DNA of 61,406 nucleotides, filler included, from Hausera hauseri (lineage: Eukaryota), in the NCBI GenBank assembly GCA_046269625.1. It is 10 parts of 10 records of this genome, joined end to end, with 100 filler letters (N's around TTAATTAATTAA, not from the genome) between each part and the next. Parts side by side here need not be neighbours in the genome. Positions count along the whole stretch, not along the records: positions 5,167 to 9,791 come from JBJURY010498685.1; 9 more parts are not named here. One strand, written 5' to 3'. Both the position numbers and the translations under genes were made by a program. Positions 291 to 60,824 of the stretch are shown one piece after another. A model generated the notes under the pieces. That model did no database searches. It worked only from the letters and a program-made list of their open reading frames with translations, and was not told the DNA's origin. Position 1 is the first letter of the stretch, and the number at the start of each line of letters is the position of its first letter.

Positions 291-668
291 TTAAATATGG
301 TCAATCAACTTTTTCATTACAATACAAAGCGAAGCAGAAAATACAAGTCCAATGAAGGAATTAATCCGCTGTCGTTGTAGTTTTTGTCTCATTTCATCCT
401 CCATACATTTTACGAAGAGAGATCTGACTATCAATTCAATATATTCTCGCCCGCTCATTATTCTCGTTTCTGTGAGTTCACATGAAAACCGTACATCAAA
501 CACATGTCCAGTCATTATGTCATCGGTCAATTTCTGAATTTCACTTTCAATGTACTGTTCCATTTGATCCGTATTAATATTATTGATAGTAGTAGCAGAG
601 CTGTGATGCTTATAGCTGCATGAATTAAACATGTTGTAGTTTATAAATGAAAGAAACAAGCTACACAT
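291..668 (-). CDS. Small Polinton accessory protein with C-terminal hydrophobic helix (true start probably MEQYIESE)
   Basis: ORF ends FIGLVFSASLCIVM. A decayed homolog (MKQYLESEIKKLTDDILTGHVFDV) lies at about 60449-60720 in the same position relative to PolB. Confidence 0.55.
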   Translation of the reverse strand: MCSLFLSFINYNMFNSCSYKHHSSATTINNINTDQMEQYIESEIQKLTDDIMTGHVFDVRFSCELTETRIMSGREYIELIVRSLFVKCMEDEMRQKLQRQRINSFIGLVFSASLCIVMKKLIDHI

Positions 669-760
669 TTATTTCAGTGTATTTATTTGAATTCATTTTA
701 TTTGTAAACTAAATTTAAGAGGTGTTAGTTTATTTCATTTAGAAATACAATGAATATCCC

Positions 761-3700
761 ATGTACTGCATCGATCGCATACATGAGGCGGATCAGGGCC
801 ATCGGCAGATGGCGAAATATTACAGCATTGGAGAAAAGGACATGTATTTATGTCCAACGTGTAATATTCCAACCCACTGTCCGTGCCCAGATTTTTATAA
901 AATACACAAGCATCATTTTGGCCCGTTTACACGGTCTAAGAAGATAATGATGAAGAATGTGCTTTCCCCGTATACGCATTGTATTGTAATAGTACAGCAG
1001 TGCATGACGTTAATGACAACCATAGTAGAGTGGAGCAGTACTATGGCGTCATAGCGGTGCACGGTAAACGGACTTATGTTTGTCCCCGTTGTTCTATAGT
1101 TGAAGCACAAGTCAACTATGAACAAATTTATAACAAGCACAAGAACCACTTGAACCAATTTCATGGATGGAAAAAGCAAATAGTAATGGACGCAACAAAC
1201 AGCAGTATCAGAAGAAGCAGCATTCCCGCAACAAGCAGGAAATGTCAAGCATCTACGAATCTTAACGAACACATACAAAACAGAAAACAGCAACATCAGC
1301 AGCAGAAGCATTAAAAACAAAATCAACAGCATCAGAAAGAAAACAACAACAACAACAACAACTGGAACCTGACCTTCACATTACTGTCGAGTACGATCTA
1401 AACAGATCGTACGAGGACATAAAAGTTGACATGACACCAGCAATGTTAGTACAATTAAAGCATGTACCGTCCGGTGCACGCAATGGGTGAGAATCCGAAG
1501 TGAAGAAATTCCAACGCAACCACCAACACCACCAACACCGCTGCAAAGTGCACAGCGGTAGAAATACGGGTAGACTAAGAGATTTACAAGAACGCATATG
1601 TTGACATAATTTATGGACGTCGGAACCCGAATGGACGCCCAATAAATTTGTTGCTATTAGAGCAAAACGAAAGGGAAAAATTCCGTTATGTGGCCGTGAC
1701 AAATTCGGACTAACTGTTGAATATTGAACATGTCCAGTTTATCAAAAAGTGTATACGGTGTAAATGGGGTCTCGTATGTTTGCACGGATTCAGGTCAGAA
1801 ACAACATGGGAGAAACATGTGACACTATGCAATCAAAGTTCCTCGGAAACAACAATGTACATCGTGCCCGTCAAAAAGGAGCTGAGATTCAGTGACTGGT
1901 CAAAATCTGACACTCCAGCATACGTGGTGTGTGCAGATATTGAAGTCATTCTACCACGGCACAATATATACAATCAAAAGCACGTTCCAGTCGTTGTCAG
2001 TATGTTGGTAGTCCCAATAAAAGCCACTGGTCAACCGCTTTATTACGTTTTCCACGGCTGGAACTGTATCCGTAATTTCCTGCATCAGTTGGAAACAATA
2101 TTAGTAACGGAACTCTCACCCTGGTACAGTAATAGTAGCAATAAACCCTTGATGTTGACAGATGAATATGAACCGTTGATGTTTGCAGCCACCGATGAAT
2201 ATTATCTATGACACAAAATATTACAGTTCGATGCAGAGGAACGGCTCATACCGAATTACGATCACTTTACCGGTCGGTATCTCAGAACCGCATGTAATTC
2301 ATGCAATTTGCCAAGGCGTGTGCGGCCATTCCTACCGGTGATCTTTCACAACTTCAGGGGTTATGATTATCACTATATTTTGAAATGGGCAATAAACGGA
2401 TTTCCGCACTGTAAACTATCCGTAATTCCGACTACAATGGAGAAATACTTGTCAATGTCTGCTCGTATAAACCGGTTCCAAGTACGCTTCCTCAATTCCT
2501 TGCAATTTCTCAATGAATTTCTGTCAAAGCTGGTAAATGCCTTGCCAGATGTGCCGCTAACAATAACTCATTTCTTTGTGCATATTGCGCGTAGCAAAGG
2601 TATTTCAGTATGACTTTGCAATATCGTACGAGCGACTCCAGACGACAGACGAATTACCACCACAGTGTCCCGGTACCACGGAAGAAGAATATCGCAAAGT
2701 ACAGTTGTTTTGGGTAGACCTCGGTTGTAGAAACCTGTTGGAGTACATGCTTCACTATCTGAAATTGAATGTGTACTTATTAGCCGATGTGTTTCAGACA
2801 TTTCGAGCTAAGACGTTGACAGAGGATAGGCTGGAGCCACTCAACTTTTACTCAATACCCGGAATGAGTTGGACATCAGCTCTGATGTCACTGGATAGGG
2901 ATATCAAGCTATTGTGGCATGCATTTGTCAACAATCATCATATTAGTGTGCTGCTGCTGCTGCGACCAGTGATGATACCATATCACTGTTGTATATCGAC
3001 ATTAATACCCTGTACGGCTGGGCGCTTTCATAACCCTTGCAGTACGGTTTATTCAAGTAGGTAGTAGAGAAGCAAGAGCTGAGAGCAATAATAGAAAATC
3101 TACCTAGAGCAGAAACAACAGAAAACAGCTCAATCGGATACCTGATAGAAGTCGATCTATAGTACCAGATGAGCTGCATAACTTTCTGAATGAACTGCCG
3201 GTCCCACTGATTAACCAATGTCCGCCGGGCTCGAAGGTGAAGAAGCTGCTTATGACAAATGAACCTAAACAAAATTACATAGTTCATTGGCATTTGTTGC
3301 AATTTTACATGCAGCTCGGTGTACGCGTCGCACAATTACATTGTGCAATCCGATTTTCACAGGCTCCTATATTCAAGGTGTATATCAGTCGGAATTCGGA
3401 AAACGAGCTTGAGCTTGTACGAAGTTTGAAAAAAACTATTACAAACTGAAAAACGATTCTCTCTATGGAAAAACAGTAGAGAATCTGAAAAAGAGGCTAA
3501 ATGTACGTCTGTGCAATAGCGAAATGCGGTTAGTCACGTACACCAGCAAGGTGCATTTCAGGCGATCAATGCACATTGCCGATGGATTGGTTGCCGTGCT
3601 TTTAAACATAAAACAAGTAGTAATGGACCGGTCAAGTTATATAGGATAAGTGGTATTGGATCTGAGCAAGTTGTGGATGTTTGAGCTGCAGTATCGCGAT

Positions 3701-4255
3701 TTGACACATTAACGGCAAATGCTCGGCGATTTCAGGATCAATATAATTGCCGGTGACACAGATTGTTTTTCCTTCGAACTGGAAAACGTCAATCGCGAAC
3801 AACTACTGCGGGAAATGATGGCAGACGGATTACTGGACAGATCTAATTACCTACAGAATTATCCATTGTGCAGCAGTGCCATCAAAAACAAAATCGGCTG
3901 CTTCAAGGATGAAAGCGAAGGTCGAGTTCAGTATCGGGAATGGGTATTTCTACGGCCAAAATGTTATAGTCTTTCAACTGACTGTGGGCTGAAAATGCGC
4001 GTTAAAGGAGTTCAGTTGGCCCAGACGGAAATAAACCACGGTGATTATCGCCGTATATATGAAGCAGGGGTAGAAAACGGCGAAGGAGGAGAAGAAGAAT
4101 CAAAGGTTGTTGTGTCCCAAACGACCATCCGATCGATTGAGCACCAGCTGTATACGGTGACCAATACAAAATATGCTTTATCATGTAATGATGATAAGCG
4201 AAAGTGGGTGGGGCGAAATAAGAATTTGGCGTACGGACACTGGCGTTTGGAATAA
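761..4255 (+). pseudogene. Protein-primed family B DNA polymerase (Polinton pPolB) with Cys-rich N-terminal region and endonuclease VII-like segment; many stops and frameshifts
   Basis: Motifs in order: CADIE (ExoI), DHFTGRYL..ACNSCN, IFHNFRGYD (ExoII), RFLNSLQF, KG.F.YD, YLKLNVYLLADVF (ExoIII), LLYIDINTLYGWA (motif A), KLKNDSLYGK (motif B), AGDTDCF (motif C), FLRPKCY, ALSCNDDKR, LAYGH. Confidence 0.92.
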
Positions 4256-4575
4256 AAACAAACATACAAACACACACACATACACACACGAATTTGGATC
4301 TAACAATGCAGACAGATCAAAGTCACCCATTTACTGCAACAATCCATTGTGATCTGTGTTTTGTATAAATAATGTATATTGTTCATTGTTTTTGCCTTTT
4401 GTTTTATTATCATCTAATTTACCTCTATACATTTATATACTTAACTAAGTTTTACGAGAAACAATATGAAAGACGATATCAACAAAATTTATTAATCATA
4501 AGCTAAAATCAAAAACAAAGTGATTTAACTCCGTGCAGATCCTTGTATCCTTTCAACGTCAATTTTTTATAGCCT

Positions 4576-4929
4576 TTAGCTCCTTCCGGTGGCAAGACTG
4601 CTGCTGCTGCTGACAATTTTTGTCACATTTCCTTTGAGAAAAATATACGATGTATCTCGGATATCGTTTTTCGACACCAAATCACTGTCAACTTTTCTAA
4701 TTGTGTCTTCCATTGTATCTACATCATCGTCGCTGACCTTTTTCACCAATAGACGATATTTCACCGGTTTGGTTTTGACCGTTTGCGTCAATGGAAATTG
4801 AATAGCGTTGAGCAGATAACGTAAGTTATATCCATTATACAACCGGGAATTTCTGAGCGAATATTCGATGTAGCTTGACTTTTTTGAGAAACTCGCAGAA
4901 ATGTCACCTGAATTGTTTTCAAAAGACAT
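4576..4929 (-). CDS. Hypothetical protein convergent with pPolB, probable Polinton gene
   Basis: ATG-initiated 117-aa open ORF with no recognisable motif. Confidence 0.4.
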   Translation of the reverse strand: MSFENNSGDISASFSKKSSYIEYSLRNSRLYNGYNLRYLLNAIQFPLTQTVKTKPVKYRLLVKKVSDDDVDTMEDTIRKVDSDLVSKNDIRDTSYIFLKGNVTKIVSSSSSLATGRS

Positions 4930-5066
4930 TGTTTAAAGACAAACGTGAAATGAAATTGCATCCATATTTGTATCAAATTTGTTCATACTGGTTTGTTTTT
5001 ATTTTAAACAATAGACATTTACTTTGTGAGTATTGTCTCATATCACAATAACACAAATTACCTCCA

Positions 5067-5166: not shown

Positions 5167-5516
5167 AGCGTATTTAGGGCTCTGTAATCTATACAGAACC
5201 GATGTTTTGTGGTACCTTTTTTCTTAACCATGAGTATTGGCGAGTACCAAGACCGGTAACTTGGTCGTATTATGTCTGCCTTCAGCATGCGTTCTACTTC
5301 TTTTGTTATTTCAGGCCTTAACAAATGCGGTGGTGGGTACCATTTAGACATCTTTTGCCCTTCAAAATAAATTTCGTCGTTTGAGCCAGGTTTCTTTTTT
5401 AATGGAATCGTTAATCTTAACGTTTTTGCTCTGCCTATATGTTCCTCATCTTGGGCAATAATCGATTTATATTTACATAATAATTCGTAAAATTGGCAAT
5501 ATGCTTTTGGTGACAA
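5167..5516 (-). pseudogene. Reverse transcriptase N-terminus (Gypsy), cut by contig end
   Basis: EVERMLKADIIRPSYRSWYSPILMVKKKGTTKHRFCIDYRALN. Confidence 0.93.
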
Positions 5517-5683
5517 TTATGTTTCAACATGGGGTGGAAATTCGGCATAGTTGTATGGTTTTTCTTCTATTGTTATTGCGGACACCTTATAAGTATGACC
5601 CAATGTAGTATTGGCATACAATTTTATGGAAGTTGGTGCATTATTCACTAATCTAATTGGTACTCTTCCTGTCGTTACTCTTG

Positions 5684-6176
5684 TCAAAATGTTACTAAGT
5701 ATAATATTTGGATTAACGTCTTCTTGTGGCGGATTTGAGCGTAAATTAGCATTTCGGTTCTAGGCGGAATATTTTCGTCGACGGGGATCCATACTTCTCC
5801 TTGTTTCCTCTCTTTCATTGTCTTAATACCTTTTACTGGTCCAAGTTCAATTAGTTTTCCAGTCTGAAAATTTATTGCGATATTAGGTAATTGTTTCAGT
5901 ATATCACATCCTAATACTACGTCATCGGTTAATTGGTCCATTACGAAGGATTTGGTCCATTAATTGAACTAAAGGACTCCATTTAAATTTCGGTTTGGAT
6001 TTTTGCCCGAAGGCTCCTATGCTGTCTGGGTCTGACGATGATGCTGGCTGTAATTGTTTTCGTAATGTCAGCGGTATTGATTCTAATTTGATAAACGATT
6101 TTTCCAACCCTGTGTCGATTAAGGCATAAACTTCCCAATCTTCAATGGTAACTTTTGTGAAGGGTCTTCCTTCCAT
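5684..6176 (-). pseudogene. Retropepsin-like aspartic protease, frameshifted
   Basis: VYALIDTGLEKSFI (catalytic DTG) and DVVLGCDIL (GxD-like C-terminal motif). Confidence 0.85.
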
Positions 6177-6811
6177 AACTGTTCCATACCAACTTGACGT
6201 CTTTTTGTCGTTTAATTGAAGAAATCTTATGTCCGTTTATCGTTATTTCTTGCGATGAAATCATATTTTCGGTTAGCTGCTTCAGTTCTTCAGATCGTTG
6301 ATGGCTATGCTATCTATATTGTTTCCAATTAGTGGTTCTTGTATTATTGTTTTCTGGAGAGATTTCATTCCTTGTGTTCCCCAGACTATTGATCTCGTCT
6401 CTATATTACGAGCTATTCTTGGTGAATATAATATTCTATGGTCGTCTTCCACTCGTTGCTGATTAACGAATTGAATTTTCTTTAATACTCCGTATTGTTT
6501 TGTTCCTTCATAAGGGTCCTCATAGTTAAAGGGTTTCCGACTAAATTGTGACTTGTATAACACCATAGATGTTCTATCGCAATCTTTATATATTGGAGCT
6601 GTTGGTGGAATGATGGGTACGGGTGCCTTGATTGCTGAATACATCTTGTGTCTATTCTGTCTGAAAATCGCTTCTCCTCCCTTAGGCTCGTCATCATCGG
6701 AGTTATTTCTTCCCGTCATTGGTTTCTTAACCTTGAGTTTCAATCGAAATATGAGCCTTGCTCCTCGTTTATAATTATAATAGCCGACATGGCGTTCAAC
6801 TCATTTTTCCA

Positions 6812-8690
6812 TCAATTCTGTTCGTAGGCTTTAAGCATTTTGCCAAACGGTGTGATAATTGCGGTTATAATCTTACAAGAAAATCCTGTTAGCGTGAATA
6901 TTTCATACCCATTTATAACCTCTTGGATTATCGCTTTTACTAGTTGTACTAAGAAATAGATTTCTAAAAATCCAGATGCGGCTTGTCCAAAAATTAAAAA
7001 TCTTCCCCATATTTTGTAGAGTATTTCTGAGGTTACCCGTTGGTAATGGTTTGCACCAAGTAAAGATTCCCATTTAGCCTGATAGCGGGTATCATCTACT
7101 ACTGATGCCATGGCTTGGTTTAATTCGTGTGTTCACTGTCGTGGAAAAGCAAGAAATTGTTGAAAAGCTTCAATCTCTTTAGGTCTGTAAATACCCTTTT
7201 GAGATGTATCCTGAAATTTGTTAGTTATTCCTTTTGCTAAATTAGTTCCAGTTAGTTTTTTAGGAATGATAGTGAGGCCTCCATTGGGTAAGCTAACCCA
7301 GTCCGTATCACTACGTCTAAACATTGGTTCATCCAAATTTGCCTTACAATCCTTTAAGATGGTTGGTTGTTGCATTATCAAACAACACTCTAGTGAGAAG
7401 CATGGCTAGACGTGAAGTATTCTGGTAAATTACAGGAAGCTCTTGTATGCATCGTTTTTCTTCGACATTGATTGGTACATCTCTTGTCGCATTCATATGT
7501 CAGTAGAACCTCGCCAGTAACTCGGTCAAAGATTCTTTCTCTCATGGGAATGATCGGTGAGGCTAACTCAGGATTCGCATATGGGCTAATTTTGTTCTCA
7601 TAATTTCCGTATCTAACTTGCAGTCACTACTTATCATTTTATGGTATAATTCGGCTATTCCGACGTGTCCTTTATAATAAAAATAATCGTCTCGGTTTTT
7701 CAGATAGTCTTCAATTCGAATGTCCTGCGTTTCTAAGTTGTATGTTTTTGCGTTTATCTCCGTTTCTGCGACGAATAACGCTTCGTAGTTAGTGATGAAC
7801 ATTACTACCTCGCAACGTGAAATCATTTCATTTTTTATGAATTTCAATCCATGCTGATCAGTGATTAATATCGTAGGTGTATGATGCTCTGATACATCTT
7901 CATGTGCTCTTGAACTGACGTCGGATTTGTCTACGTATCGTTTCCCGGTAGTTTCATTAAATTTCAGTTCTTTGATCTCAATAAAATTACAGGCTTTTCC
8001 AGTGGGCGGTTCCCATATGACAGCAGAACTTCGGAAGGCACAAATTCCGTCTTGCACGTGGCATTTCTGATTCTCAGTATATAGCTTAGTGACACTATGG
8101 AACATTACTTTTTGTACTCGCATCTCCGATTCGTAAAAGTCTACTACTACTACGTTTGCTTCCGATCCTTTTCCGGTATCGTATTCCGTTCCACTATAGT
8201 TCCCGTTATGCATATCTAGCCTTCCAGCTAGTATCTTATACGCTCTGATTATTTTTCCCAGTTGCATTTCTAATTCCATGCTATCCCATTTCAGTCTTCC
8301 GGTTTCTCTGGCTTGCTTGCAGTGTTGTCTTTCCAAATTCATTGGAATTGGAGGGGTTGTTGGTTTAATTATTGAGGAGTACCCGTGCATTAGTCCACAA
8401 TGAAAAATACTACGAGATCGTCTCAGCATACATTCCATGCCATCCAAAGATAACTCTTGTTGTTGGTATAGAAAATAGCTCTTCTCCTTTGTTTCCAATT
8501 TATGTGGTCTGGCATCTTCACATGCTTCTAAGTCCATTAATGAATATTTTTGACCAAGCTTAAATCTATCGCAATCGTAGACAGTGCCAGCACCCATATG
8601 TTTTATTAACATCATTATGGTGAGCAAACTGATTAACCAATTAGATTCATTCTTTCGGTTGTTGTTATCCGTTGTCGTCAAGTTGCACAT
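6812..8690 (-). pseudogene. Env-like viral fusion glycoprotein, chuvirus/Monjiviricetes-type, frameshifted
   Basis: Hydrophobic signal WLISLLTIMMLI followed by VYDC..YSL.D...C, FHCG, C...GIC..VIW, GEVLL.YEC..CIQELPV.YQN..TRVL, GIY and C-terminal membrane segments WGRFLIFGQAASGFLEIYFLVQLVKAIIQEVINGY..GFS. This pattern matches chuviral-type glycoproteins as I recall them. Confidence 0.82.
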
Positions 8691-9089
8691 TATTACTGCT
8701 CCTTTTGTCTTCTTCCTTGTTAAACAATTTCAGCCAATTTACTTCACATGACAACTTTCTAGATGCTCTTCGCGCCAAGTTTGTAGCTCTATTTGGTTCA
8801 TCTTCTCGATTTGGATTCGTTTTAATTGCCAAGTACAATAATGCTTTTCTTAGCTCTTCTATCGTATTCTCCACCATAATCTTCTCGACTATTGCGTCGT
8901 CAGTTAGGCTACATTTTGACAGTTTGAAACGCTAACTTTTCATTGTTCTAGCTGCGTTAAATATTGCCTTTTCTTTATCATTTAATGTATCTCCGCGTAG
9001 ACTTGAATAATTTACAATAAGTATTAAATTCTTCATTAACTCGCTTAACTCTTCGTTATCTGCATTAAAAGTGGGGATCGACATTTGTC

Positions 9090-9736
9090 TTAACTCTGTA
9101 ATGAGTTCTCCGTTATAGTCGATTTCTTCTCGGGGTTTCTAGGTCTTCCGATTGGGCGTTTTGGTATTGGAGCGTTAGTTGGCATTCCACTTAGTGGTAC
9201 TAGATTCTTGTCATATTGTTCTTTGTCTTCATCCGTCTGTAAATACTCGAAATACATTGCCGCATCTCGTACTCCCATTGTTCCATTTTAGCCTTTCGTG
9301 TGGCTTCTTTTGTTTGTTCATTGGCCATTGTTACTGTTATGCGATTCGTTTTGTCGGGGATAATTCCGACATCTATTAACTGTTCTAAATCATCGAGTAT
9401 TCTTCCTCTAAAGTAGAATCTGTAATTTATCTTGTTTGTTCCACCATTATTTAATAACCATTCTCTTGCGTCCTTCACATAGGAATAAGTAGTTAACTCA
9501 CATTCCTTCTCATCCATCCACTCGGATGATATCATTATTTTCATCACTACTTCAGGTTTAGTCCTCAGAATATCCGCATACTTCTTTATCAAAAGTTTCG
9601 GCACCGTGTTGTAAATTGTATTCTCGCTAGATAATTTAGTCAAAGTCGGAATAAGTTGTCTGAGCTTATTTTCATTCATATTCACATTAGTTGATTCCAC
9701 CAAGTCCGTCTCGGTTGACGCTGAGTCTAGGAGCAT
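9090..9736 (-). pseudogene. Accessory region containing a ubiquitin-like domain and an AT-hook
   Basis: MKIMIS...YVKDAREWL...YRFYFRGRILDDLEQLIDVGIIPDKTNRITV aligns by eye with ubiquitin [38 protein letters not shown] AT-hook at about 9136-9162. Confidence 0.7.
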
Positions 9737-9891
9737 CTCTACGTTGAATTTTCTGTTCTGTGAATACCTTTCTGTTCCTTCTAGGTGTACTNNNNNNNNN
9801 NNNNNNNNNNNNNNNNNNNNNNNNNNNNNNNNNNNTTAATTAATTAANNNNNNNNNNNNNNNNNNNNNNNNNNNNNNNNNNNNNNNNNNNN

Positions 9892-9992
9892 ATTGACTTT
9901 ATTATGTTATTGATCTGTATCTGTATATATTTTAATGTATTTCAAACTATAATTATTATGATGATACAGATCAATAACATAATAAAATCAAT
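9892..9992. repeat. Inverted repeat with 30-bp arms (foldback/MITE remnant)
   Basis: ATTGACTTTATTATGTTATTGATCTGTATC ... GATACAGATCAATAACATAATAAAATCAAT, one mismatch. Confidence 0.7.
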
Positions 9993-10250
9993 TATTTGAT
10001 GAATACGATTATGTAACAAATTACATTCTCATTTACAGTTACTGCATTTTGGGGCATACGATGTTATTTAAATTTCTGATTTTGTTGCGGACGTTACTTA
10101 CCGTACACTCAATTAATAAATGTCCGACCAACAAATGTTCAAATTTTGCTCGTATTTTCTATGGTCCGGTAAGGGTTAACAATATCCTTCACTGAATAAT
10201 AGTTCCTAAAATATTTCCTACAAACTATTCATCTTTAATCATTTATTTAG

Positions 10251-12266
10251 AATTAGATAGACTAAGGCGATTCGACTGGTCAAATATTGCATTGCAACAA
10301 CTTGATGAAAATTTCATCAATTGCATTTTGATAGTTTCCGATAAGGGATATATCATAGAAAGTAGTACGGATTCATGTGCCAGCGTCGGTAGTTGGAATA
10401 ATTCCAATGAAACGATGACCAGTGTTAAACACAATGTTGAAGTAAATAATTGATATGTGGGTATTTGTGGTTTATCGAGAAGTTTAGAGTTTATTGAGCA
10501 GACAAATCTATTTGAATAACAGGCTGATTGCAGATAATACCGTACCAAAGTTATTTGGTGTTTTTGTATCCAAAGGGGGTGTCTTTCCAACGTCATCACT
10601 TGGAACGACCTATGGTAAGTATAGTCTAACATTTTAGAAACAGAGATTTAAAATATTGCGTCATTTTGCACTTCATTAATCCCCTCTAAATCAATATTGA
10701 TAAGTTCATAGGTATTGAATTTATTAATCTTATAACCTCAAACTTATTCTCCTTGTTCCGTCAGGAGGTACACTGACGTTACTCCCCAATTATTTATCAG
10801 ATGTTAAACAACCGTCCCGAGGGGATGGTATACCAGACAGGGCCCTTGACTTGTAAATTATTTTAATAATACACAATCTAGTTACTTATTATCACTACTC
10901 TATGAACAACTAACCGAACAATAAGACTGATTCTTTAATAAGTAATGAAGACAACATAAAACCAAATTACAATAAATAAAAGAAGAATATTCAAAAATTA
11001 CTTACAACTATCAATAGCTGATGAAATGGTAGCATTAATCATACGTCGTTACAAATTCTCTGTTCGTTTACAATCATGCTGGTGTGTGTGTGTGTATAGT
11101 ATTTTACAATTATCATCTCCAATCAAAATAAATGAAAATACATTCAACAAGAAGACGAAGAAAACGAAATCTAATTTATGCGTACGTTAAAAAATATAAA
11201 GTTCGTATCAGCAACGACTGAAAAGCGTTAGTTAATAAAAATAATTAATCAGTGTTTATTTGACATTTCTGTTTGGAATAATAAATCTTTGCTGGACTGA
11301 ACAATATTTTAAGTTCAATTTCCAATTTGTCATCCATGTTATGTCAAACTGCAGTACGTATCAGTTACTTAGATAATATTTTTTCCATTTGGTATGAATA
11401 CTGAAATATTTCCAGATGAATATTTTGTTATCCTTGCATACAAGGGAAATGAATGAGTACAAAATGATGTATAACTAATTTTCATAAAATGTACAATCAG
11501 TAAAATTGGCATAATTTCAAATTCCTTGTTCTCCTTATTTATACACGAAGAATATGTCGCATTATTGAGAATGATTCAAAAATATTATACTCTCATTTAA
11601 TAATTCAGCATTGGGAATATTGATCAAAAATTCAAATTCATTCGCCGTAAATTGGTCAATATCCGATGTATCACCAACTGTAGGTGATCAGCCATCACCG
11701 CAAAACGATAAAAGGAAAAGAGATTTCTCTCTTCTGTTGACCAAAGGAACGTTAGCATGGTCGGAATCGATAGTTGTACCAGTGAAATATACTCCTAGAA
11801 CTAACGAATGCTGTGACTACAAGTGTTGCGTAACTGTTTCCACTGAATCAGAAAATGGCACTTATGTACAAGACGTCCTGTTCGTTACGACAGAATACCG
11901 AGTAAATTTGTGGTATTTCTGTAAATCCGAATTAGTATTTTATAGGAGAAAGAAAAGTTACGCGGGTATCCTTGTATTCCGGGAATGTCGATTAAAAATC
12001 GTAAATTGATATTGACCCCATCCAATCCATCAGGCAGTGTCATATTCATTAAGAACAACATACACAGCAAAACGCTGTATTTCAGTTCTGTACGCAGTGA
12101 ATTCAAATCTCTGAAGCCGCAATACTTCTTGTTCGGAAAGCAGTATGAAATCGTGATCGAATTACGTGATGTTACCTCGAAACACTATTTCACTGACCAT
12201 CTCATCATTTCGGACTCTGATGGAAATTGCACGACTGTCACTATCCAAGTTGACTTTACTGTGTAA
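10251..12266 (+). CDS. Last four exons of a host gene ending in two ASH/PapD-like domains, CEP192/SPD-2-like (exons 10251-10441, 10488-10614, 11609-11901, 11946-12266)
   Basis: GT-AG introns of 46, 994 and 44 nt splice into one open frame. FPTSSLGTTYALGILIKNSNSFAVNWSIS...GTL...VPVKYTPR and IKNNIHSKTLYFSSVRSEF...FTDHLIISDSDGN resemble the two terminal ASH domains of CEP192. Confidence 0.7.
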
Positions 12267-14373
12267 ATATCCCGTACAAAGATTTATATTATGGCGCAGA
12301 TGTTTATGAGATTCAATATATTGTTTACACTGTTGATGAATGATTCTTTAGTGTTCAGGAAATGTTGAATTGGCCCTCTGGTGTATGGTTGTAACTTTGC
12401 AATTTCATGAAAAGTTAAATACAAAATACACTTTGATACAGGTCGAATTTCTGAATCTGATGCTTGTGTAATCCATTATTCCAAAGATATTACGTTTAAG
12501 GTCACGCTTTGAATTTCCATTGGATTTAGAAACCATTAAATCCCATCTACATTTGCAGTACCGTCAAGTTCCGATGGCTTACGTGAAAATTTTGTTAGAT
12601 TTACTGAAATAATACGAATTTTATTGATTAAATTTTGATGTGAGAATAAAATTTCAAATTATGCGAATTACGATTTGTTTGGCTGTGAAAATGAATGGTG
12701 CATGTAATTTTTGTATTTTGAATCAATTTTATTAAAATCCTGACTTGTACATTTATTGATTATCGCGGTAGCAGAATTTCGTAATCGAGGCTTGTTCGAT
12801 CGTTGTAGGTTTTGACAAGTTTCCGTAAAACCAAAAATGGTAGTTGCTATAAATTATCGAATGACGTTCATTTTCCCAAATATGGCGAATTCAATTTGAT
12901 GTCATCGGGAATGTCGTAAAATACGTCCAGCACGCCCAACCGGCCCAAACACTCAAGATTGTATTGATCGTACGCAATATTTGCGATGATTTTATCGCAT
13001 TTGTCGTAAGATTAATTAGACTGTTGTGTTGGTGTATACTGTGTGATCGTATGAGGTACTTATACCAACATATAAAATCATAATAATGACTGTTCATTTT
13101 TGAGGTTGTCTGTGGGAATAGAATCATTGGTTATGCACGTATCTGAAGGTGGAGTTCAGGAGGTTAGGTGAGCCTGCGCCCTTGCACTCAATTCGAAGAG
13201 ATTGATAATTCTTATATTATAATTATATTTTAATTTCTCGTTAAGCTGATGGTTGTGGCTTACCGTACTTCATTCATATGTATATTTATGGGAATACTAA
13301 TGCTTTTACATTTTTATCAGAGTTAGAGAGCCCAAAGTCAAGGTTCTAAGTCACTCGAGGATTTGTCTCCTGTTAGATTTATCATACCTTGAGATCTTTA
13401 CATTACTTATAATGATCCATTCCTTCTTCAGTAATTATGAGTGGATTATGCTATTCCAACAATCGAATCAATTATTAATCGCATTCATAAGTCAATAATT
13501 TATTTCCATATGTACATCAGAAGGAATATTGCACGACCGATAAAATCATTCAGTTTAGATTTTGCGGCCGGTAAAACAACATTGCTGTTGTAAGGCTGTT
13601 TCGTTTAACTTTAAGTCCATGTTTAATTGACTTAAAGCATCACCAAGTTTCGCATCATTTTCACTCGATAGCTGCTTTACACGCTAACTATACTTGGGTG
13701 TGGTCAGAAACGCTGTATTATTCAACGAAATCTGTACGGGCGTTTGAAGATAATGCACTTCATACTTTCGGAAATGTCGCATCGGTAAAAATGTCGGTGT
13801 TTGATGTGTGGGCTTTACTTTTTGCTTCTGTATTCCATTAGTCATTCGCGCATGTCGTTTTATTTTAGGATTTTCTAATTTGGTCAGTGTATATTAGTTT
13901 GATTCAGTAAAACACTTATGTGGTGTTTACATTGATTAATAGTCGTCTCATAGTTGATTGACTGAATCCCCAATATGACAATTTTTCCACTTCTGAACAC
14001 AAACGGTGCAGAATAGTGTTAGTCGCAGTGCAGGAAACAGTTCGGGCTTGTGAGAAGATTGCATTTTATTTTCCTTCATTGTATTAAGATCTACTCCAAT
14101 CACGTTCTAATGTCGACTGGTCCAATAATATACAAAAAATTTTTTTGTTTGTCTTTTGATATTGCAGAGCCACAGCAAGTTTGCGTTTGGATATTCGACG
14201 AGTACTACAACAATTCAAAATAGTCAAAGTAAAGTTAATATGGAGTCTGAATGTATTTTAGTTCCAATCACAGAATAAGTAAATCCGGATTAATTCATAA
14301 AAAGCTTTAAAAGTTCACCAATTTTAAACAAAAAAACTAATTTTACGTTAAAAATTGCACAAACACACAATTG

Positions 14374-14713
14374 TTATTTTGGTGGGCCAATGTGGGCACC
14401 ACAGGGCTCATAAATACATTCGGTAGCCATTGGTAATTTGTGCAGATTATTTGATGGTGGTGGTGGTGATGAGCAATCTAACTGAGGCGTTACCGTTATT
14501 GATTGAATTTGGTGAATGACAATTCCGAATTTTAGATGTCTATCATTTGTGATTGGTTTGCGACAACCCATAAAACGACACTTTCCCGATGGAAATATGA
14601 TGCATGTAATATCCGGTAGACATTTCTGGACATACTGCCTCGTCTTCCATTGATTAAACGGCAGTGCCTGAATACACTGAGTAACGTCTGCGGTAGTTGA
14701 TATTGGCTATCAT
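14374..14713 (-). pseudogene. TATA-binding-protein-like gene in a Polinton fragment (frameshifted, 3' truncated)
   Basis: MIANINYR/ADV...IIFPSGKCRFMGCRK (compare TBP LIFSSGKMVCTGAK), followed by a second repeat IQSITVT...LHKL...YEP. Confidence 0.65.
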
Positions 14714-14769
14714 GATTGATTGAAAGTGTTTATGGTGCACGTATTTATGTATGTGTGATTATAAACAAA

Positions 14770-16871: not shown

Positions 16872-17721
16872 TGTTATTACAGTGGACGTTTAATCGTACG
16901 ACGTACACACCGACGTCGTGCTGAACTAACTGTTTAGCGTAGTCTAAAAAAACTATATACCGACTTGCACACAACCCCGTGAGCACGCGCGTGAGCATAC
17001 ATGTCACTCATTACTGCTCACATGTCGCACATGTGTGCTCACATGTCATACATGGGTGCTCACATGTCGTACATGTGTGCTCACATGTGCATTTACATGC
17101 TGACCCTGTTCTAGACACTGCGTAATACACTACTAATATAATACTAAGGATAAAATTATATTTGCGGAAAATAGGTGAATATCAAAAACAATTCATAAAA
17201 AATAAGAAATGAATTAATTGTATAAAGCTCACAAGTATAAATACAGTGAAGAGAATGAAGCAAGTGAGAAGAAAGTTTTGCCGTTACTGATCGTGACTTA
17301 ACAAATCGGGAGAGAAAGCTTCGAGTTAAATCTATTCTGTTGAAACTTATTGAATTCGCGAGAAGAAACATTGCACTGATCTCGTATTACTGAACTTGAA
17401 TTCTACTGATCCTACGAACGATATTTATTGGTAACTGTTATTTAATAAAGTTGTATTTTTAATCTGTTCATAGTTTGCTTCGCTCCTTAAAAGCGATTTT
17501 ACTACCTTAAGGTTAAAATCTTTACTGTGACTTCACATAGTTAAGAGAAGAATTTTATTAAACATTTTATTTGCACAGGACTACTGATTAAACTAATTGT
17601 TATAGGGTACAAACTGTCTATCCGATAACGGTAGACCTTACCTGTATTTAGATATTGTAATCTCAAGTGTAATTACTGTTATATAGTGGGAGTTGTATAA
17701 GAACCACCCCAATATATAACA
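16872..17721 (+). repeat. 5' LTR (about 850 bp) of Gypsy family A
   Basis: TGTTAT...ATAACA terminal inverted repeat, TATA-like boxes near 17221 and 17237, AATAAA near 17444, PBS 2 nt downstream. Confidence 0.8.
17015..17089. repeat. 21-bp tandem repeat (x3.5) in LTR U3, rich in CACATG/CATGTG E-boxes
   Basis: TGCTCACATGTCGCACATGTG unit repeated with minor variants. Confidence 0.85.
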
Positions 17722-17723
17722 TT

Positions 17724-17741
17724 TGGCGACCCTAGCAGGAC
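17724..17741 (+). promoter_or_regulatory. Primer-binding site, probably tRNA-Arg
   Basis: TGGCGACCCTAGCAGGAC directly after the LTR ...CA; complementary to a tRNA 3' end ...GGGTCGCCA of the Arg type. Confidence 0.8.
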
Positions 17742-18038
17742 AGTTTGTGTCTCGCTAGACTTTACTTTCGAGTGTTAAATAATTACATACCGGCAAGTAG
17801 TGCCAATCACACCAAATAATTCGATATAATCGAGAACGGAGAGATAAACTGGGTACATAAGTTATCAAACGGGGAATAAATAAAACTATCAAATTCGAGA
17901 ACAAATATTGGTAAATCAGAAGTAAACCTTGTATTAAAGGATAATTCACCCATACGCCAAACGCGTAGAAATATATACAGAGATATTAAAAAATTAGATA
18001 AACATTCAAACTGAGAGAATAGAATTAAATTAGACGCC

Positions 18039-19200
18039 ATGGAGCAAAATAAGCAATTTAAAATCCCACTTGAGAAGCACAAAATCACTAAGGCAAATTT
18101 TGAGATAAACTACGTAACTAATATGGCAGCATGTAACCCACCAATAGCGCAGAAACTGGACATCTTTAACTTTGATTCTCTTAATCTGCCGCCATATGAT
18201 GATGAGCAGGACGGGCTTAATGGATTCTTGAGTACTTATAAATTGCGCCCAGAAGGTGCTAATCTTACTCCTGAAGTGATGATTAAACGCTTGTCATTAT
18301 ATTTGAAAAATTTAGCCGCTGACACTTATAGTGAGCTCAATAACGATGAGAAGAAATTTTGGTCCTCCCTAGTAGGAGCATTAAACCGTAAATTATTGCC
18401 GACAGTAACGCCGAAACAGAAACTTATGGAATTTCAAAATACAGTGCAACAGAAGGGCCAATCGGTAACCCAGTTTGCATTTGCATTGAAGAAACTCGCT
18501 AATAGTTATTTAAGTAGACTGAGAATAACTAATGTAGCAAAGGCTAAAACAGACGCAGAACGTGATGCGGCGGAAAGGCAACCCCGCCAGACTTAGACGT
18601 CCTGATAACAACTCAATTAATTAATGGTATTTGGTCCCGAGATTTAGTGAAGCAGTTGATTTTGGCCAGACCTTAGAATTTCGAAAAAAACTCTACAATT
18701 GGCTCAAGATTTAGAAATGGCACTTGATATATATGCCAGGTACAACGGTAGGAACGACGGAAATAATGATCGAAACGACCGTAACGATAGAAATCGAAAT
18801 GACAATCATGGAAGAGATGATAGACGATTTAATGGAAATGGAAATTATGAAAATAGAAATAGTAATAATGAATACAGGAATAGTCGAAACAATAGTTATG
18901 TTAATGGCCGAAATATGAACAAGTCAAATTTTAATTCGAATAGAATCCGAGAAAACTAAAAAGGTAGTCGAAGAAATGTTGATAGTACACAAAGTTTGCC
19001 GAATCAGTACAATAGAAGTACAAATAGGCCTAAGTCACCTGTGAACGAAGACGGTCGACAAAGAGTCGGTAGAAACGGAAATTTAGTTTGTTTCACTTGT
19101 GGAAAAGAAGGACATATTTTAAGGTCATGTCCAAACCCACGTAGCGTTTCATATACTGAGCCTAATAAGACTAGTATGATTAGAGTTAATGAAAATTTAG
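18039..19200 (+). pseudogene. Gag (capsid region, N/R-rich linker, CCHC zinc knuckle)
   Basis: LYLKNLAADTY...W..L..AL...QQKGQSVTQFAFALKKLA capsid motif; CFTCGKEGHILRSC; internal stops and frameshifts. Confidence 0.9.
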
Positions 19201-19302
19201 AGGATAAAGTATGGTGTTCGTGGAGATACATACACTATCATCGATATACAAGATATACGAAGATTTCTAGATGCTCAGCCTGCGACTATTAAGCCACAAA
19301 TT

Positions 19303-22300
19303 GTGATGGCTAGAAAAGAATACGGAGATAAGCTAAGACTATTAGAAGTATATCATGGTTTAGTAGAGTCAGAAACTGAATATGAGCATGCGATAGCACT
19401 CAAGCGAATTGATATGACGCGAAAAAAGAGTGTTCCGACGAGCAATAAAATATCTGATAAACCAGGAACTTCGACAGAAGTCGACTTAGATGCAGAACCT
19501 GAGTTAACGGTTGAAAAGCCAAATAAGGCTACCGAAGATGAAACAGCTGTAAAGGAATTAATGGAGCCATTAATACTTAAAATTACGAAAAATAGAGGCC
19601 GTAGCCCTGCATTAAAACGAAACGTAGAAGTCGTTTACACTCGCAAGTAACTCGAGAGAAATTAGAAGCGAAAAATATAAAAACCATAACAGAGAGCGAT
19701 GTAGAGCATAACTTAAATACGCTAGAAATCGGTCTATTAACGCCTACCGAGGTAAAAGAATCTACAGGATCAATTAATGAGATTAATGAGATTTGCCCAC
19801 TTCCCACCAGCGAGGAAGAAACGGAAAATATTGGTGATTTTGATCTAATAAAGTGCAAGGTTCGACGTTCGTAGAAAAACGCTGATGAGTTCAAGAAAAT
19901 GAGAATTAGATGCCACGATCCGGAAATAATACAACGTAACTTGGAAAGACTCAAGCAAATCAGCGAACAAGTAGATATATCCGGAAAAGAGCAACAGTTT
20001 GCCGAGAGGTTATACAAAAGTTTGAAATTATGCAGTGAAGGAAAACTCGATGAAGCGATCGACTTTGGACAACCTAAAGAGGTATCACCTGAAACGCTGT
20101 CAAAACAGAAGCACGAATTAGATTCATGGATTAAAAGTGGAGTCGAATTTTTAGAAGAATGGAGCAAAAACGAAAATAGTGTCGACGTAAAAGTCGCCAA
20201 AGCTCGGAAGTTATTGCCTACTTTAGAAATAAACCCAAAACTGAATAGAGTAGTCCGTAATTTAGAGTGTATGATGGACGAAATTCGCCACGCAATGATT
20301 AACCGGCTTAGAGAAAGACCAGTCAGCAATCGAAGTAATACCGATTTAGAAATATTGGGTGTAGACCCCGTATATATTCCTTTCTTAATGGAGATGATAA
20401 AAATCTCTTTCGCTGTACCCAAACGAATCTAGAGAATCGAATCAAAATGGAAAATGAAAGGCTAGCGCAGATTTATAGCTTGAGAAACCGAATTATATCT
20501 CTAAACCGCGAAGAAACCCAAAACGTAGTAAAAGCTTGTATCATAGAACTTGACGAATACAAGGACGAGTTTGATTATGTTAGCCGGAATATGAATTTAA
20601 TTAAAGGTCCCTATGATGAATTAAAGGATGCATATAAGATGCTAGATAAGGCTATAATGGCAAAGCCAACAATCGCCAATCAATTGTCGGAATGGTCCGA
20701 ATTAGTAACGCGACTAAGTAAATTAGTGGAAAACCGTAGGAAAGAATTTTCATAGAGCGAGCCTTCTATAAAGAAACTGTTAGAATTGAGTGCACGTAAT
20801 TTAGATAAAATAAAAGCGGAAATATATATCAGAACTCAATTCGAAGCACTACGACAGCTAAACTTTATGAAGAAGAAGAAGAAGCAAGAAGTAATGATAT
20901 TGGAAGAGATCTATAAAATGGTCGAAGATACGAACTTTACAGAAAAGCGAAATATAACTTGCAATTTTTATCCAAGATTAAGAAATATCCGACTAGAAGG
21001 AGTCCAACATTTAACAGATAAACCTATCAACTAGATCTCTATCCGAGATATTGAAACCCTAGACATTTTTCCGGAACATCAATCCGCTTTAACGGAAGCA
21101 ATAAAATTTTTGCATAAACCAAAAGAATGGATGGCCGGATCAGATCAGAATTCCCACACCGAGTTGACGAGGATAAGAGACGACCAACATCTTAGTTTTC
21201 AGGAATCTAAGTTCGTAAAGAAATTGCTAGATGTAATAGATCCCCACCCAAAAATCATAAATTAGATGTACGAACTAGCCTTGCTATTAGTAGAAATGGC
21301 AGAAATTAACGACGAAATGATGGGGCAATTGGTGCCTAAAATCAGACACGTTGAAGAAACCTGCATTAAAACCAAATAAAGCGCAACAAGGTTAGATGAA
21401 TTAGTAAAAGACCTCGAAATCTACCGAAATAAATATGCTTTTACCGAATCAGAGATCAAAAATAAGCGAGAATTTATACAAAAATGGCAAAGAAACGTAA
21501 TTATTGAACTAACAGATTATCACCAAAAAGGATTCATCAACTCTAACGAATTAGGCGAATTATTGAAAATGATTCAGTATGCCTGCGGAAATGGCATAGG
21601 TTTTCAAACTACGCAGATGAAAGAAATACAAAAAGAATTAAAGGAAATTCGAGAAAATGCGCAGAGAACGAATACAGATTTTATAGACTATGTACTCTCA
21701 GATTTTGAAAATGAACCGGAATGGGACGCATATTTAGAGGCGATAACGGTCAAAAATCCTATGACCCCAGTACAGCTAAGAGAAATAGAAACGTGCCCGC
21801 AGAACAAGAGGTATAATGTGGAAATGCTCCTGGATTCAGCGCAAACTGAAAAGGATTTAATTGAGCTAATTAACTTAAACATTACTGAAAGTAAGTTAAG
21901 ACAACTTGTTCCGACCTTAACTAAATTATCTAGTGAAAATACGATTTATAGTACGGTGCCGAAACTTTTAATAAAGAAATACGCTAAAATCTTGAGGGCT
22001 AAACCTGACGTAACAATGAAAATAATGGTATCGCCTGAGTGGATGGACGAAAAAGAATGTGAGCTAATTACATATTCCTATGTAATAGACATAAGGGAAT
22101 AGTTATTAAGTAATGGCAGGACGACCGAGCGAAACTATAGGTTTTACTTTAGAGGGAGAATACTCGACGATTTAGAACAATTAAAAGATGTTTGGATTAT
22201 CCCAGATGAAACGAATAGAATAGTAGTGATAATAGCCAATGAACAGATAAAAGAAAAAGCCATGCGTAAGGCCAAGACAGAACAATGCGTAGGACAAAGT

Positions 22301-22474
22301 GTGGGAGTCCGAGACGCTACAGTGTATTTCGAATATTTACAAACGGATGAGGATAAAGAACAATACGATAAGAATTTGGTACCACTGAGTGAAGTGATAG
22401 CCAATGCCCAAGACAGAAACGACCAGTCGGTAGGCCTAAGAAAATACGAGAAGTTGATTATAATGAAGAATTGA
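19303..22474 (+). pseudogene. About 1000-codon accessory region after Gag: charged alpha-helical segment, ubiquitin-like domain (about 22013-22232) and AT-hook (22417-22443)
   Basis: Chain of same-strand E/K/L-rich ORF fragments. The 3' part is homologous to 9090-9791. KRPVGRPKK reads in an alternate frame at 22417-22443. Confidence 0.7.
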
Positions 22475-22734
22475 TTTGTTATATCTTTCAATAACATTTT
22501 TACGGAAGTTGCGCTTGTGCAACTTTGTCGGGTTCGAAATGGTGGTATGGTTANNNNNNNNNNNNNNNNNNNNNNNNNNNNNNNNNNNNNNNNNNNNTTA
22601 ATTAATTAANNNNNNNNNNNNNNNNNNNNNNNNNNNNNNNNNNNNNNNNNNNNCCGACATCATCGGGCCGAAAACTCCGCACCCGCTTGTACCCGACCAC
22701 GATGGGCCACGGGACAACACAGCACTGTGGGCAT

Positions 22735-24940
22735 CACAATGATCAGAGGATATTATATTCCCTAAGAATACCAAGAGTTGTTAAAGTCAGATAAACATTT
22801 ACAAAATATCAAAAAATGCAAACTTTCAGAAGTCAAGAAACAGAAGCGGTTAGTTTCGTGAATAATGAGTTGTATCCGACTGGAGAATTTCGTGAATAGT
22901 GAGATGTATCCGATTAGAGAATTGAGGCAACTAAATGATCAACCAGTTACAGATGCAGAAATCAGAATTAATGAATATAAAGTATCAATGATTAAGCACC
23001 CTGAAGTTGACCAAATTGTTATTGCACAATAATAAAAGAAGGACCCTTCGCTAAAATTCATATCGAAAACTGGAAAGCCCACGCACTAATTGAAAAGGGT
23101 CTGAAATATCGTTAATCAAATATGACTCGATACCATAAGTTTTGCGAAAATAATTATATTTACCTCCAGCGACAGACTCCAGGACTATAGGATGTAATCA
23201 TGAAATTCATATGAAGAGACAATCATTTCATCACGAATATTCAATAATGGAGCAGTTAACTGATGATGTAGTATTAGGATGCGATTTACTGAGACAGTTA
23301 TCAAATGTGGCAATAGGTTTTCACATTGGTAAACGAATAGAACTTGGACCAATAAAAGGAATAAAAACTACTAAAGATAGAAAATATGGAGAAGTACGGA
23401 TTCCGGTAGCAGAGAATATTCCGCCCAAAACAGAGATGCTGATTTACGCACAAATTCGCCAAGACGATGATCAACCAGTATATTTGGAACCGAAAAACAT
23501 TAAACCTGAGCATCGTGCTCAGTAATGTGATAACAAGAGTATTGGCGGATCGTGTACCTATCAGAACATCTAACAATGCTCCAACTCCAATAAAGCTGTG
23601 CTAAAGCTACTTTGAGTCACACTTATAAAGTGTCATCGAGAACCATCTAGGAAAAAGTTTATAAATGCGTCGAATTTTGACCTCACGTTGAAACTAAATA
23701 CTCACCAGAATCGTATTCTCGCTTTTATGATCTTCTGTGGCGTTATAAATCAATTATCGTTAAAGATGAAGATATTGGTAAAGCTTTGAGATTAAGGATT
23801 CCACTAATAAAACGCCTGGTTCAAATGACGAAATCGATCCTGAAGATCAAAAGATATCGAAATGGCATCCTTCACCACATTCATTAAGACATGAAATAAC
23901 AAAGGAAGTCGAAAGAATGCTTAACTACGATATAATTAGACCGAGCCATAGACCTTGGTATTCACCTATACTTATGGTTAAAAAGAAAGGTTCCACAAAA
24001 CATCGATTTTGTATCGACTATAGAACACTGAACATTCATGAAGAAAGACTCTTTCATTACCCTCTGTGAAAGAAGCTTTAGATAGACTCTCCGAAGCAGC
24101 ATGGTTTACCACACGACTTGCAATCCGGATACTGGCAAGTAGAAGTGGAAGATGAAGACCGTTACAAGATAGCATTTAAAACTCACGATGGTGTATACGA
24201 GTTTAATGCAATGCCATTTAGTATTATAACCCGGATGATGAACAAAATGCTGATGGAACTCGAATATGCATTTGCATATTTGGACGACGTAATGATCGTG
24301 TCAAGAACGGAAGAACACTTAAAAGATATTGAAGATACACTGATGAGATTGGAACAAGCAGGATTGAAGCTGAATCCTAAGTGTAAATGGACCCAAAATG
24401 CATTATCCTACCTTGCACATATAGTTGAAGCAGGATCAAAATCCGACAAGTCATTATTAAACAAAATATCGGACTGTATGGAACCACAGAATCAAAGAGC
24501 TGAGACATTGGGTTAGGCTTGTGTGGATACTACGCCACAAACGTACCCATAACTCTCAAATAAATGCACCGTTGTATCGCCTGCTTAAAAAGGAATTAAA
24601 TGGAAATGGACAGCTGTGGAACAAAAATCTTTTGATGAGACGAAGACAATTCTAACAAGCTAATCTGTTTTAAGATATCCTGATTTTAGTTTGTTATTTA
24701 TAATCAAAACTGACGTCAGCGAAGTAGGTATTTAATACGAGTTAGCCCAGAAACGTGGCGATGAGGAATTAGAACACCCGATCCCCTATGGAAGACGATC
24801 ATTGAAGAAAGCCGAGAAAAATTACTCATGGAGTTATAAACATTACTGTAAAAGAAGCCCTACGACATTTTAACGTTTACGTCTACGGACAGAAAATTAA
24901 AATTTTTACGTATCATAAGGCCGTTACGACTTTGAAGGGA
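22735..24940 (+). pseudogene. Gypsy family A pol: linker, decayed protease, RT, RNase H (truncated)
   Basis: Homologous to 5167-6450. LQSGYWQVEV..KIAFKT..FNAMPF..AYLDDVMIVS; IKTDVSEVG...YGRRSLKKAEKNYS. Confidence 0.9.
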
Positions 24941-47430: not shown

Positions 47431-47473
47431 ATAAAAATTTTGTTTTCGATTTTTGAAGTATAATGCATTATAG

Positions 47474-60792: not shown

Positions 60793-60824
<32 letters not shown>

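What the first reader, a model, noticed from the sequence alone, without database searches (positions are those of the whole stretch)
5167..9791. Gypsy element with a chuvirus-type fusion glycoprotein placed between gag and pol
Seen: within one contig the minus strand reads UBL/AT-hook region, glycoprotein (signal, Cys-rich ectodomain, TM), linker, DTG protease, RT. Homologous overlaps tie its 5' side to the LTR-PBS-Gag contig (16872-22474) and its 3' side to the PR-RT-RNase H contig (22735-24940). Established: errantiviruses and retroviruses carry env downstream of pol, and chuviral glycoprotein capture is known from BEL/Pao elements. Inference: this is an independent env capture with an unusual gag-X-env-pol order. 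The fragments abut almost without spacers, so env may sit inside one giant polyprotein and be released by signal peptidase and the protease, making a potentially infectious element. The three contigs are different copies, so the full order is a reconstruction.
Basis: partly seen in the sequence, partly recalled or inferred. Interest (0 to 1): 0.85.

Follow-up and report, generated by a model that had tools for sequence, protein, structure and literature searches.

The report
Decayed Burro-like retroelement with internal envelope
This is a broken copy of an abundant animal retrotransposon whose virus-type membrane-fusion gene sits directly in front of its enzyme genes and likely behind its capsid gene, a layout already published for giant flatworm elements, so it is a further example and not a new kind.

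Summary
One contig (5167-9791, minus strand) reads ubiquitin-like domain, helical domain, chuvirus/gB-type class III glycoprotein (Pfam E 1e-25 and 4e-21; fold matches chuvirus G and herpes gB), linker, DTG protease, start of RT. The copy is dead: 7 frame changes and 6 stops in nine homology-supported segments. The env is not a nested insertion. One run's 16,203 related contigs cover env as deeply as pol, and uninterrupted public relatives carry gag-env, env-pol or gag-env-pol in one ORF. The novelty claim fails. In-frame env between gag and pol, with mononegavirus-like env and a ubiquitin-like domain, was described for planarian Burro (PMC6431247). GAG-ENV-POL gB-type elements were catalogued in flatworms, nematodes and bryozoans (PMC13524379). 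The env falls in one clade with all protease-linked envs sampled, against an independent capture. Strict Burro membership is unproven (Bcl-2 and dUTPase tests inconclusive; host unnamed). One lead was not found in print: three relatives add a second, fibronectin-III-like membrane protein after integrase, with a weak match elsewhere in this window. The scan noted a related env-gypsy on other DNA.

The parts
9302..9559 (-). Ubiquitin-like domain (end of the region between gag and env)
   Evidence: Profile hits shown are all ubiquitin/UBL, best single-domain E 0.0014; Atlas leads include Rad60-SLD PF11976 at 0.87, below 0.9; no Pfam hit alone
9138..9149 (-). AT-hook-like GRPR core
   Evidence: Sequence; a GRP[RK] core lies upstream of env in 5 of 14 relatives checked
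8731..9129 (-). Probably helical domain at the place of Burro's Bcl-2-like domain; one stop
   Evidence: Bcl-2-like identity inconclusive: 4.0 bits against a profile of 4 relatives, 51 of 993 shuffles as high; GGW motif absent
8592..8639 (-). Internal signal-peptide-like segment before the ectodomain
   Evidence: Hydropathy 1.69; relatives have a hydrophobic segment at the same place inside long ORFs
6812..8591 (-). Class III (chuvirus G / herpes gB type) fusion glycoprotein with TM near 6970-6926; 4 stops and one frame change inside
   Evidence: PF24664; AlphaFold model of the N-terminal half, pLDDT 87.9; Foldseek BFVD top hit chuvirus-like G E 2.6e-18, PDB top hit HSV gB E 5.1e-8
6240..6811 (-). 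Variable linker between env tail and protease
   Evidence: No Pfam hit; holds the lowest-depth bin in the run; relatives have a linker here
5890..6190 (-). Aspartyl protease, LIDTG at 6122-6108
   Evidence: RVP E 9e-4; tblastx to 23020-23192
5520..5810 (-). Conserved spacer between protease and RT (place of Burro's dUTPase-like domain)
   Evidence: Aligns with relatives; no dUTPase match found
5167..5400 (-). Start of reverse transcriptase, cut by the contig end
   Evidence: tblastn of RT-bearing relatives; 83% identity to 23860-24033
16872..17721 (+). Likely 5' LTR of another copy (TGTTAT...ATAACA termini); no second LTR in the window
   Evidence: Sequence; terminal inverted match and U5 hairpin 17677-17721
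17724..17741 (+). Primer-binding site two bases after the LTR end; tRNA-Arg type by recall, not tested
   Evidence: Sequence
18015..19292 (+). Gag with one CCHC knuckle (other copy, broken)
   Evidence: Retrotrans_gag E 0.003, zf-CCHC E 7.6e-6; matches the Gag of env-bearing P0003 at E 1e-13
19293..22476 (+). Long unassigned region, then UBL/AT-hook part homologous to 9100-9791
   Evidence: blastn 74%; tblastx 73-78%; no assignable Pfam family
22735..24940 (+). Linker end, protease, spacer, RT and RNase H of a third copy; no integrase follows
   Evidence: tblastx from 23020, 22735-23020 by eye only; RVT_1 E 1.7e-13, RT_RNaseH_2 E 3.7e-18; integrase queries hit only 29837-30385

Best explanation
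This is a mutationally dead copy of a high-copy Ty3/Gypsy retroelement that carries a class III fusion glycoprotein gene directly upstream of pol, and whose intact form likely made Gag, accessory domains, Env and Pol as one Burro-type polyprotein. Predicted working: Gag, the ubiquitin-like domain and the helical domain stay in the cytosol. The internal signal sends the glycoprotein into the ER, where signal peptidase would free its start. The TM segment stops transfer, so linker, protease, RT, RNase H and integrase are cytosolic again and would be cut apart by the element's own protease. Gag, Env and Pol would then be made one to one, already tethered to a membrane, giving enveloped particles that likely move between cells of the host. 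Shown: domain order in this contig, fold class, overlaps, abundance, and single-ORF relatives. Inferred: a single ORF in this family, topology, cleavage, particles, infectivity, and a flatworm host.
For: Env and pol lie in one contig with no termini between them: the longest direct repeat is 27 nt at 74%, there is 1 chance-level inverted pair, and GC is 0.37-0.38 throughout. One public run gave 16,203 related contigs, 30 of 30 bins covered, summed depth 2,583-42,464 in env bins and 7,840-21,884 in pol bins against 11.1 for the one exact piece listed; a divergent contig spans the env-linker boundary. Of 20 long hits scanned (of 95 found), 20 carry PF24664, 11 have a protease after it in the same ORF, 5 go on to RT-RNase H, and 4 have Gag or CCHC before it. 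P0018 has CCHC-env-PR-RT-RH-IN in 2,146 aa; P0096 is a 4,844-aa env-PR-RT-RH-IN ORF. All 11 polyproteins scanned have a hydrophobic segment at the env end and most have one at its start. Literature.
Against: No copy in the window is intact, and no single contig holds gag and env together. The run is one sample, possibly the source, and its depth is not a copy number. Closest env relatives are only 22-34% identical. The RT placement is weak: SH 0.54 for a clade with all 7 env-bearing RTs and unresolved in IQ-TREE, where the split from the other RTs has support 53. Bcl-2 and dUTPase features of Burro were not confirmed. Gag has one knuckle, against 2-3 in Burro.
Confidence: 0.85

Rival explanations
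1. Same order of genes, but gag, env and pol are separate ORFs joined by programmed frameshifts or splicing, as in most env-bearing gypsy elements.
For: This copy changes frame just before the signal segment and just after the env end. The eLife paper speaks of three ORFs, and its main text has 0 occurrences of 'polyprotein' or 'in-frame'.
Against: Five more frame changes fall inside domains or between accessory parts, so frame changes here are explained by decay. Relatives read through both junctions. Burro is in-frame.
Confidence: 0.12
2. An independent, lineage-specific capture of a chuvirus glycoprotein by this element.
For: Top structural hits are chuvirus-like G proteins. The window's env sits on a long basal branch of its clade. 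Published GAG-ENV-POL elements are not monophyletic in POL trees.
Against: In a 75-sequence tree the env groups (SH 0.96) with all 12 protease-linked envs, apart from the stand-alone 600-860-aa G-like proteins. The 11 best sequence hits include 8 polyproteins over 1,100 aa. Caveat: the set was gathered by similarity to this env, and the outside proteins are unnamed.
Confidence: 0.1
3. A chuviral gene inserted into, or misassembled with, an ordinary env-less gypsy copy.
For: The contigs are short; no listed contig of the run spans the whole stretch.
Against: No termini or compositional break; env covered as deeply as pol by thousands of divergent contigs; same order in unrelated public ORFs.
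Confidence: 0.02

Closest known systems
Burro / GYPSM1 giant Gypsy elements of dugesiid planarians (Arkhipova and Yushenova 2019, PMC6431247; section 7 read whole)
   Same: Gag with CCHC, ubiquitin/SUMO-like domain, then env with hits to mononegavirus fusion glycoproteins, between gag and PR-RT; very high copy number; decayed fragments are reported in Dugesia japonica.
   Different: One knuckle, not 2-3; no MATH, BIR or ankyrin match found in the gag contig; Bcl-2 and dUTPase-like domains not confirmed; gag starts about 300 bases after the PBS, so no upstream accessory ORF in that copy; total size unknown.
GAG-ENV-POL errantiviruses with HSV/gB-type ENV (Chary and Hayashi 2026, PMC13524379; passages, section 5 part 1, section 6 part 2, section 14 and supplement rows read)
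   Same: gB-type class III env upstream of pol in a Ty3/gypsy element; 9 flatworm elements listed, 6 from Schmidtea mediterranea with 1-215 copies. Their env segments show the same cysteine pattern by eye.
   Different: Those are intact; this copy is broken. Placement in their POL clades was not computed. The paper does not discuss a single polyprotein.
Anakin, BEL/Pao elements with chuviral glycoprotein (Dezordi 2020, PMC7642597; search listing and abstract start only; named in passages)
   Same: Same glycoprotein family on an LTR retroelement.
   Different: BEL/Pao, not Ty3/Gypsy; here the RT relatives are gypsy-type.
Unnamed public polyproteins P0001, P0003, P0006, P0008, P0018, P0096
   Same: Closest sequences found (25-34% env identity); env in frame with gag and/or pol.
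   Different: Several carry extra protease-like repeats and a second membrane protein after integrase; hosts unknown (one is filed under a bacterial MAG, likely contamination).

Membership tests
Ty3/Gypsy (Metaviridae) | Protease then RT then RNase H in pol | tested here: met
   PR before RT in 5167-9791; RT-RH in 23860-24840
Ty3/Gypsy (Metaviridae) | Integrase after RNase H | tested here: inconclusive
   Not present in these contigs; present in that order in relatives
Ty3/Gypsy (Metaviridae) | LTR with TG...CA ends, PBS, Gag | tested here: met
   One LTR-like stretch, PBS and Gag-CCHC in the 16822-22553 contig, a different copy
GAG-ENV-POL errantivirus, HSV/gB-type | Class III gB-like env | tested here: met
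GAG-ENV-POL errantivirus, HSV/gB-type | env upstream of pol and downstream of gag | tested here: met
   env-pol in one contig; gag-env by a 74% overlap and by relatives
GAG-ENV-POL errantivirus, HSV/gB-type | Intact ORFs (the paper's inclusion rule) | tested here: not met
   This copy has 6 stops and 7 frame changes; whether intact copies exist in the genome is unknown
GAG-ENV-POL errantivirus, HSV/gB-type | POL tree placement with the published flatworm clades | not testable with these tools
   Published POL sequences were not among the tools' sequences; my own RT trees are unresolved
Burro | env in frame inside one giant ORF | tested here: inconclusive
   Broken here; in frame in relatives
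Burro | Ubi2/SUMO-like domain upstream of env | tested here: met
   Weak but consistent
Burro | Bcl-2-like domain directly before env | tested here: inconclusive
   51 of 993 shuffles as high; present in 4 of 14 relatives by the GGW motif, with Pfam E 1e-3 for P0002
Burro | dUTPase-like domain between PR and RT | tested here: inconclusive
   Conserved spacer present; no dUTPase hit by HMMER in PDB or Pfam; the published call used HHpred
Burro | MATH, BIR, ankyrin, RING accessory domains; 2-3 knuckles | tested here: inconclusive
   None in the gag contig by Pfam; a RING lies antisense after RNase H at 25402-25662; 3' part of the element not held
Burro | Length of 25-30 kb, planarian host, RT clade | not testable with these tools
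   No genome held; host coded; no named Burro protein among hits
Anakin (BEL/Pao) | BEL/Pao-type pol | tested here: not met
   RT relatives have gypsy domain sets, two are named Gypsy or Ty3, and none of the 120 listed is named BEL/Pao

The most novel reading that the evidence does not exclude
These elements are two-glycoprotein viruses made from a single ORF: a gB-type fusogen between gag and pol, plus a fibronectin-III-like attachment protein on a threonine-rich stalk after integrase, each released by its own internal signal. This would be a herpes-like division of binding and fusion in a retroelement, spread over a clade much wider than Burro.
Probability: 0.15. Interest if true: 0.65.

Novelty: new member of a known kind. 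Interest (0 to 1): 0.27.

Why it matters
As a locus, little: it is a dead copy of an architecture in print since 2019. It does add a divergent lineage (about 30% env identity to the nearest sequences) of a group whose biology is untested in the papers read: how a membrane protein is cut out of the middle of Gag-Pol, and whether such particles pass between cells. The unnamed single-ORF relatives suggest the in-frame layout extends beyond the published planarian cases, though their hosts are unknown. The second membrane protein after integrase is the part worth a follow-up.

Tried and rejected
No own genome is held. Word-index protein searches with env and with the UBL region found nothing; they missed relatives that the HMMER search later found, so they are weak. 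Locus searches: env query, 0 of 108 candidate stretches in metagenomes; RT-start alignment, 2 loci in metagenomes, both distant gypsy without env, and 0 of 225 in viral contigs. A single-sequence fold of the UBL region failed (pLDDT 42.5) and was not used; single-sequence PDB search gave 0 hits. The polyubiquitin E-values are inflated by repeats and were disregarded. No RNA holder was listed. The original Burro paper (Grohme 2018) is not held; it is cited only through PMC6431247 and one passage of PMC11410931. Cer1 was checked and is not a parallel: its extra ORF follows pol (PMC10309623, passages). Troyka (PMC12440569, first fifth read) is unrelated. For trees, 96 of 128 RT sequences were kept after removing near-duplicates, 33 of those went to IQ-TREE, and 74 of 101 env hits were kept by coverage, plus the window's own. 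Figures of the eLife paper (cysteine-bridge classes, POL trees) could not be seen. Earlier-findings look-ups by sequence and by genome were empty.
Full report
Setting. The window is ten short contigs joined by spacers. No genome is held and the host is coded. It is an animal repeat-rich assembly by content; a flatworm is my inference from the architecture below, not a result.

Observation. The glycoprotein matches PF24664 Monjiviricetes_fusion over profile positions 6-423 (E 1e-25) and 441-599 (E 4.2e-21). An AlphaFold model of its unbroken N-terminal 365 residues, built on a 58-sequence alignment, has pLDDT 87.9. Foldseek puts chuvirus-like G first among viral models (E 2.6e-18, TM 0.51) and herpes gB first among solved structures (E 5.1e-8, TM 0.35; 103 matches at E<=0.001, with GP64 and Dhori virus glycoprotein lower down). 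It is a class III fusogen. Upstream lie a ubiquitin-like domain (weak, lead only) and a GRPR motif. Downstream lie a linker, a DTG protease and the start of RT. Nine homology-supported segments contain 6 stops and change frame 7 times: this copy cannot be translated. The overlaps with the gag contig (74%) and the RT contig (70%) are confirmed. The gag contig has an LTR-like stretch with TG...CA ends, a PBS two bases later and Gag with one CCHC knuckle.

Is env part of the element? Yes. There are no termini or GC step around it. Laying the one public run that holds the stretch gave 16,203 contigs, 926 of them at 99% or more and 6,583 under 90%, with all 30 bins covered. Env bins are as deep as pol bins and far above the 11.1 of the one exact piece listed, and a divergent contig crosses from the env end into the linker. 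That run may be the source sample and the depth is not a copy number, but a one-off insertion would not look like this.

One polyprotein? The window cannot show it; relatives can. A full HMMER search found 95 proteins at E<=0.001, and 8 of the best 11 are over 1,100 aa. I scanned 20 of the 95, chosen mostly for length: all carry PF24664, 11 continue into a protease, 5 into RT-RNase H, and 4 have Gag or CCHC in front. P0018 has the whole CCHC-env-PR-RT-RH-IN order in one ORF; P0096 is 4,844 aa. Hydrophobic segments flank env in these proteins, which gives the topology proposed in the best explanation. Cleavage by signal peptidase and by the element's protease is inference from general knowledge of type I membrane proteins and retroviral proteases.

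What is known. Arkhipova and Yushenova 2019 (PMC6431247, section 7 read) describe planarian Burro: a 4,873-5,140-aa ORF with Gag, a Ubi2/SUMO-like domain, BCL2, then env with hits to arthropod and fish mononegavirus fusion glycoproteins, then PR, dUTPase-like and RT. [quoted passage not shown] Chary and Hayashi 2026 (PMC13524379) report GAG-ENV-POL elements with HSV/gB-type env in Nematoda, Bryozoa and Platyhelminthes, and list nine flatworm elements, six from S. mediterranea with 1-215 copies. Their env segments share this env's cysteine pattern by eye. So both the order and the env type are in print.

Independent capture? In a FastTree of 75 env halves the window's sequence lies in a clade (0.96) with all 12 protease-linked envs, apart from stand-alone G-like proteins, on a long basal branch. 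The set was gathered by similarity to this env and lacks named references, so this weighs against the idea without closing it. RT trees are weak: a nine-tip group with all 7 env-bearing RTs at 0.54, and no resolved placement in IQ-TREE.

Is it Burro? It works like Burro. Membership is open: UBL met weakly, Bcl-2 inconclusive (51 of 993 shuffles as high), dUTPase not detected, one knuckle, and size, host and RT clade untestable. I file it as a divergent Burro-like member of the GAG-ENV-POL gB-type group.

What may be new. Three relatives end in a second membrane protein after integrase, with an FN3-like domain. An ORF at 27965-28468 matches it, but lies antisense to the RT on its contig and is not tied to the env family here. 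One paper search and a term search in the eLife text found no mention; most subscription papers are not covered. A binding partner for the fusogen is the boldest reading, at about 0.15.

Verdict. Observation confirmed; interpretation partly supported; new member of a known kind; interest 0.27.

Noticed in passing
window 27965-28468 (minus); proteins P0001, P0008, P0096: Three of five RT-bearing relatives examined carry, in frame after integrase, a signal segment, an FN3-like domain and a TM segment, two with a threonine-rich stalk. The window ORF matches their profile (12.5 bits, 0 of 984 shuffles) and shares 7 invariant columns including two cysteines; all 16 PDB hits are FN3-bearing proteins by their names (recalled), best E 0.0019. 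I chose the motif by eye, FN3 is common, and here the ORF is antisense to the RT on its contig, so the link is a lead. Not found in print (0 papers).
   Followed up: partly
window 25402-25662, 25573-26253, 27361-27846, 28485-29090 (minus): Block of antisense ORFs after RNase H: a broken RING finger (E 1.7e-6) and three ORFs with no Pfam hit; possible accessory region of this or another copy.
   Followed up: partly
window 29300-32613 (minus): A second, different decayed gypsy element (RT E 3.4e-24, integrase); CsRN1-like by recall only.
   Followed up: no
window 34911-36074, 41148-42449, 46613-47074, 47464-47805: RING-finger ORFs on three other contigs and a cut BIR-like motif seen by eye with no Pfam hit; such domains are accessory parts of Burro and of large DNA elements.
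   Followed up: no
window 1-5066, 47906-52004, 57312-61406: Three contigs hold 71-82% identical decayed copies of an element with protein-primed DNA polymerase B pieces; Polinton/adintovirus-like by recall.
   Followed up: no
proteins P0001, P0006, P0025, P0096: Several relatives have 2-6 DTG protease-like motifs in one polyprotein, on both sides of RT-IN in two cases; P0096 also has ankyrin and C2H2 domains.
   Followed up: no
window 16991-17099 and 17677-17721: 21-nt tandem repeat rich in CACATGT within the LTR, and a 14-bp hairpin at the LTR end.
   Followed up: no
window 33903-34597 and 39174-40778: Direct repeat of about 340 bases at 89% and inverted repeats at 80% within one AT-rich contig.
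   Followed up: no
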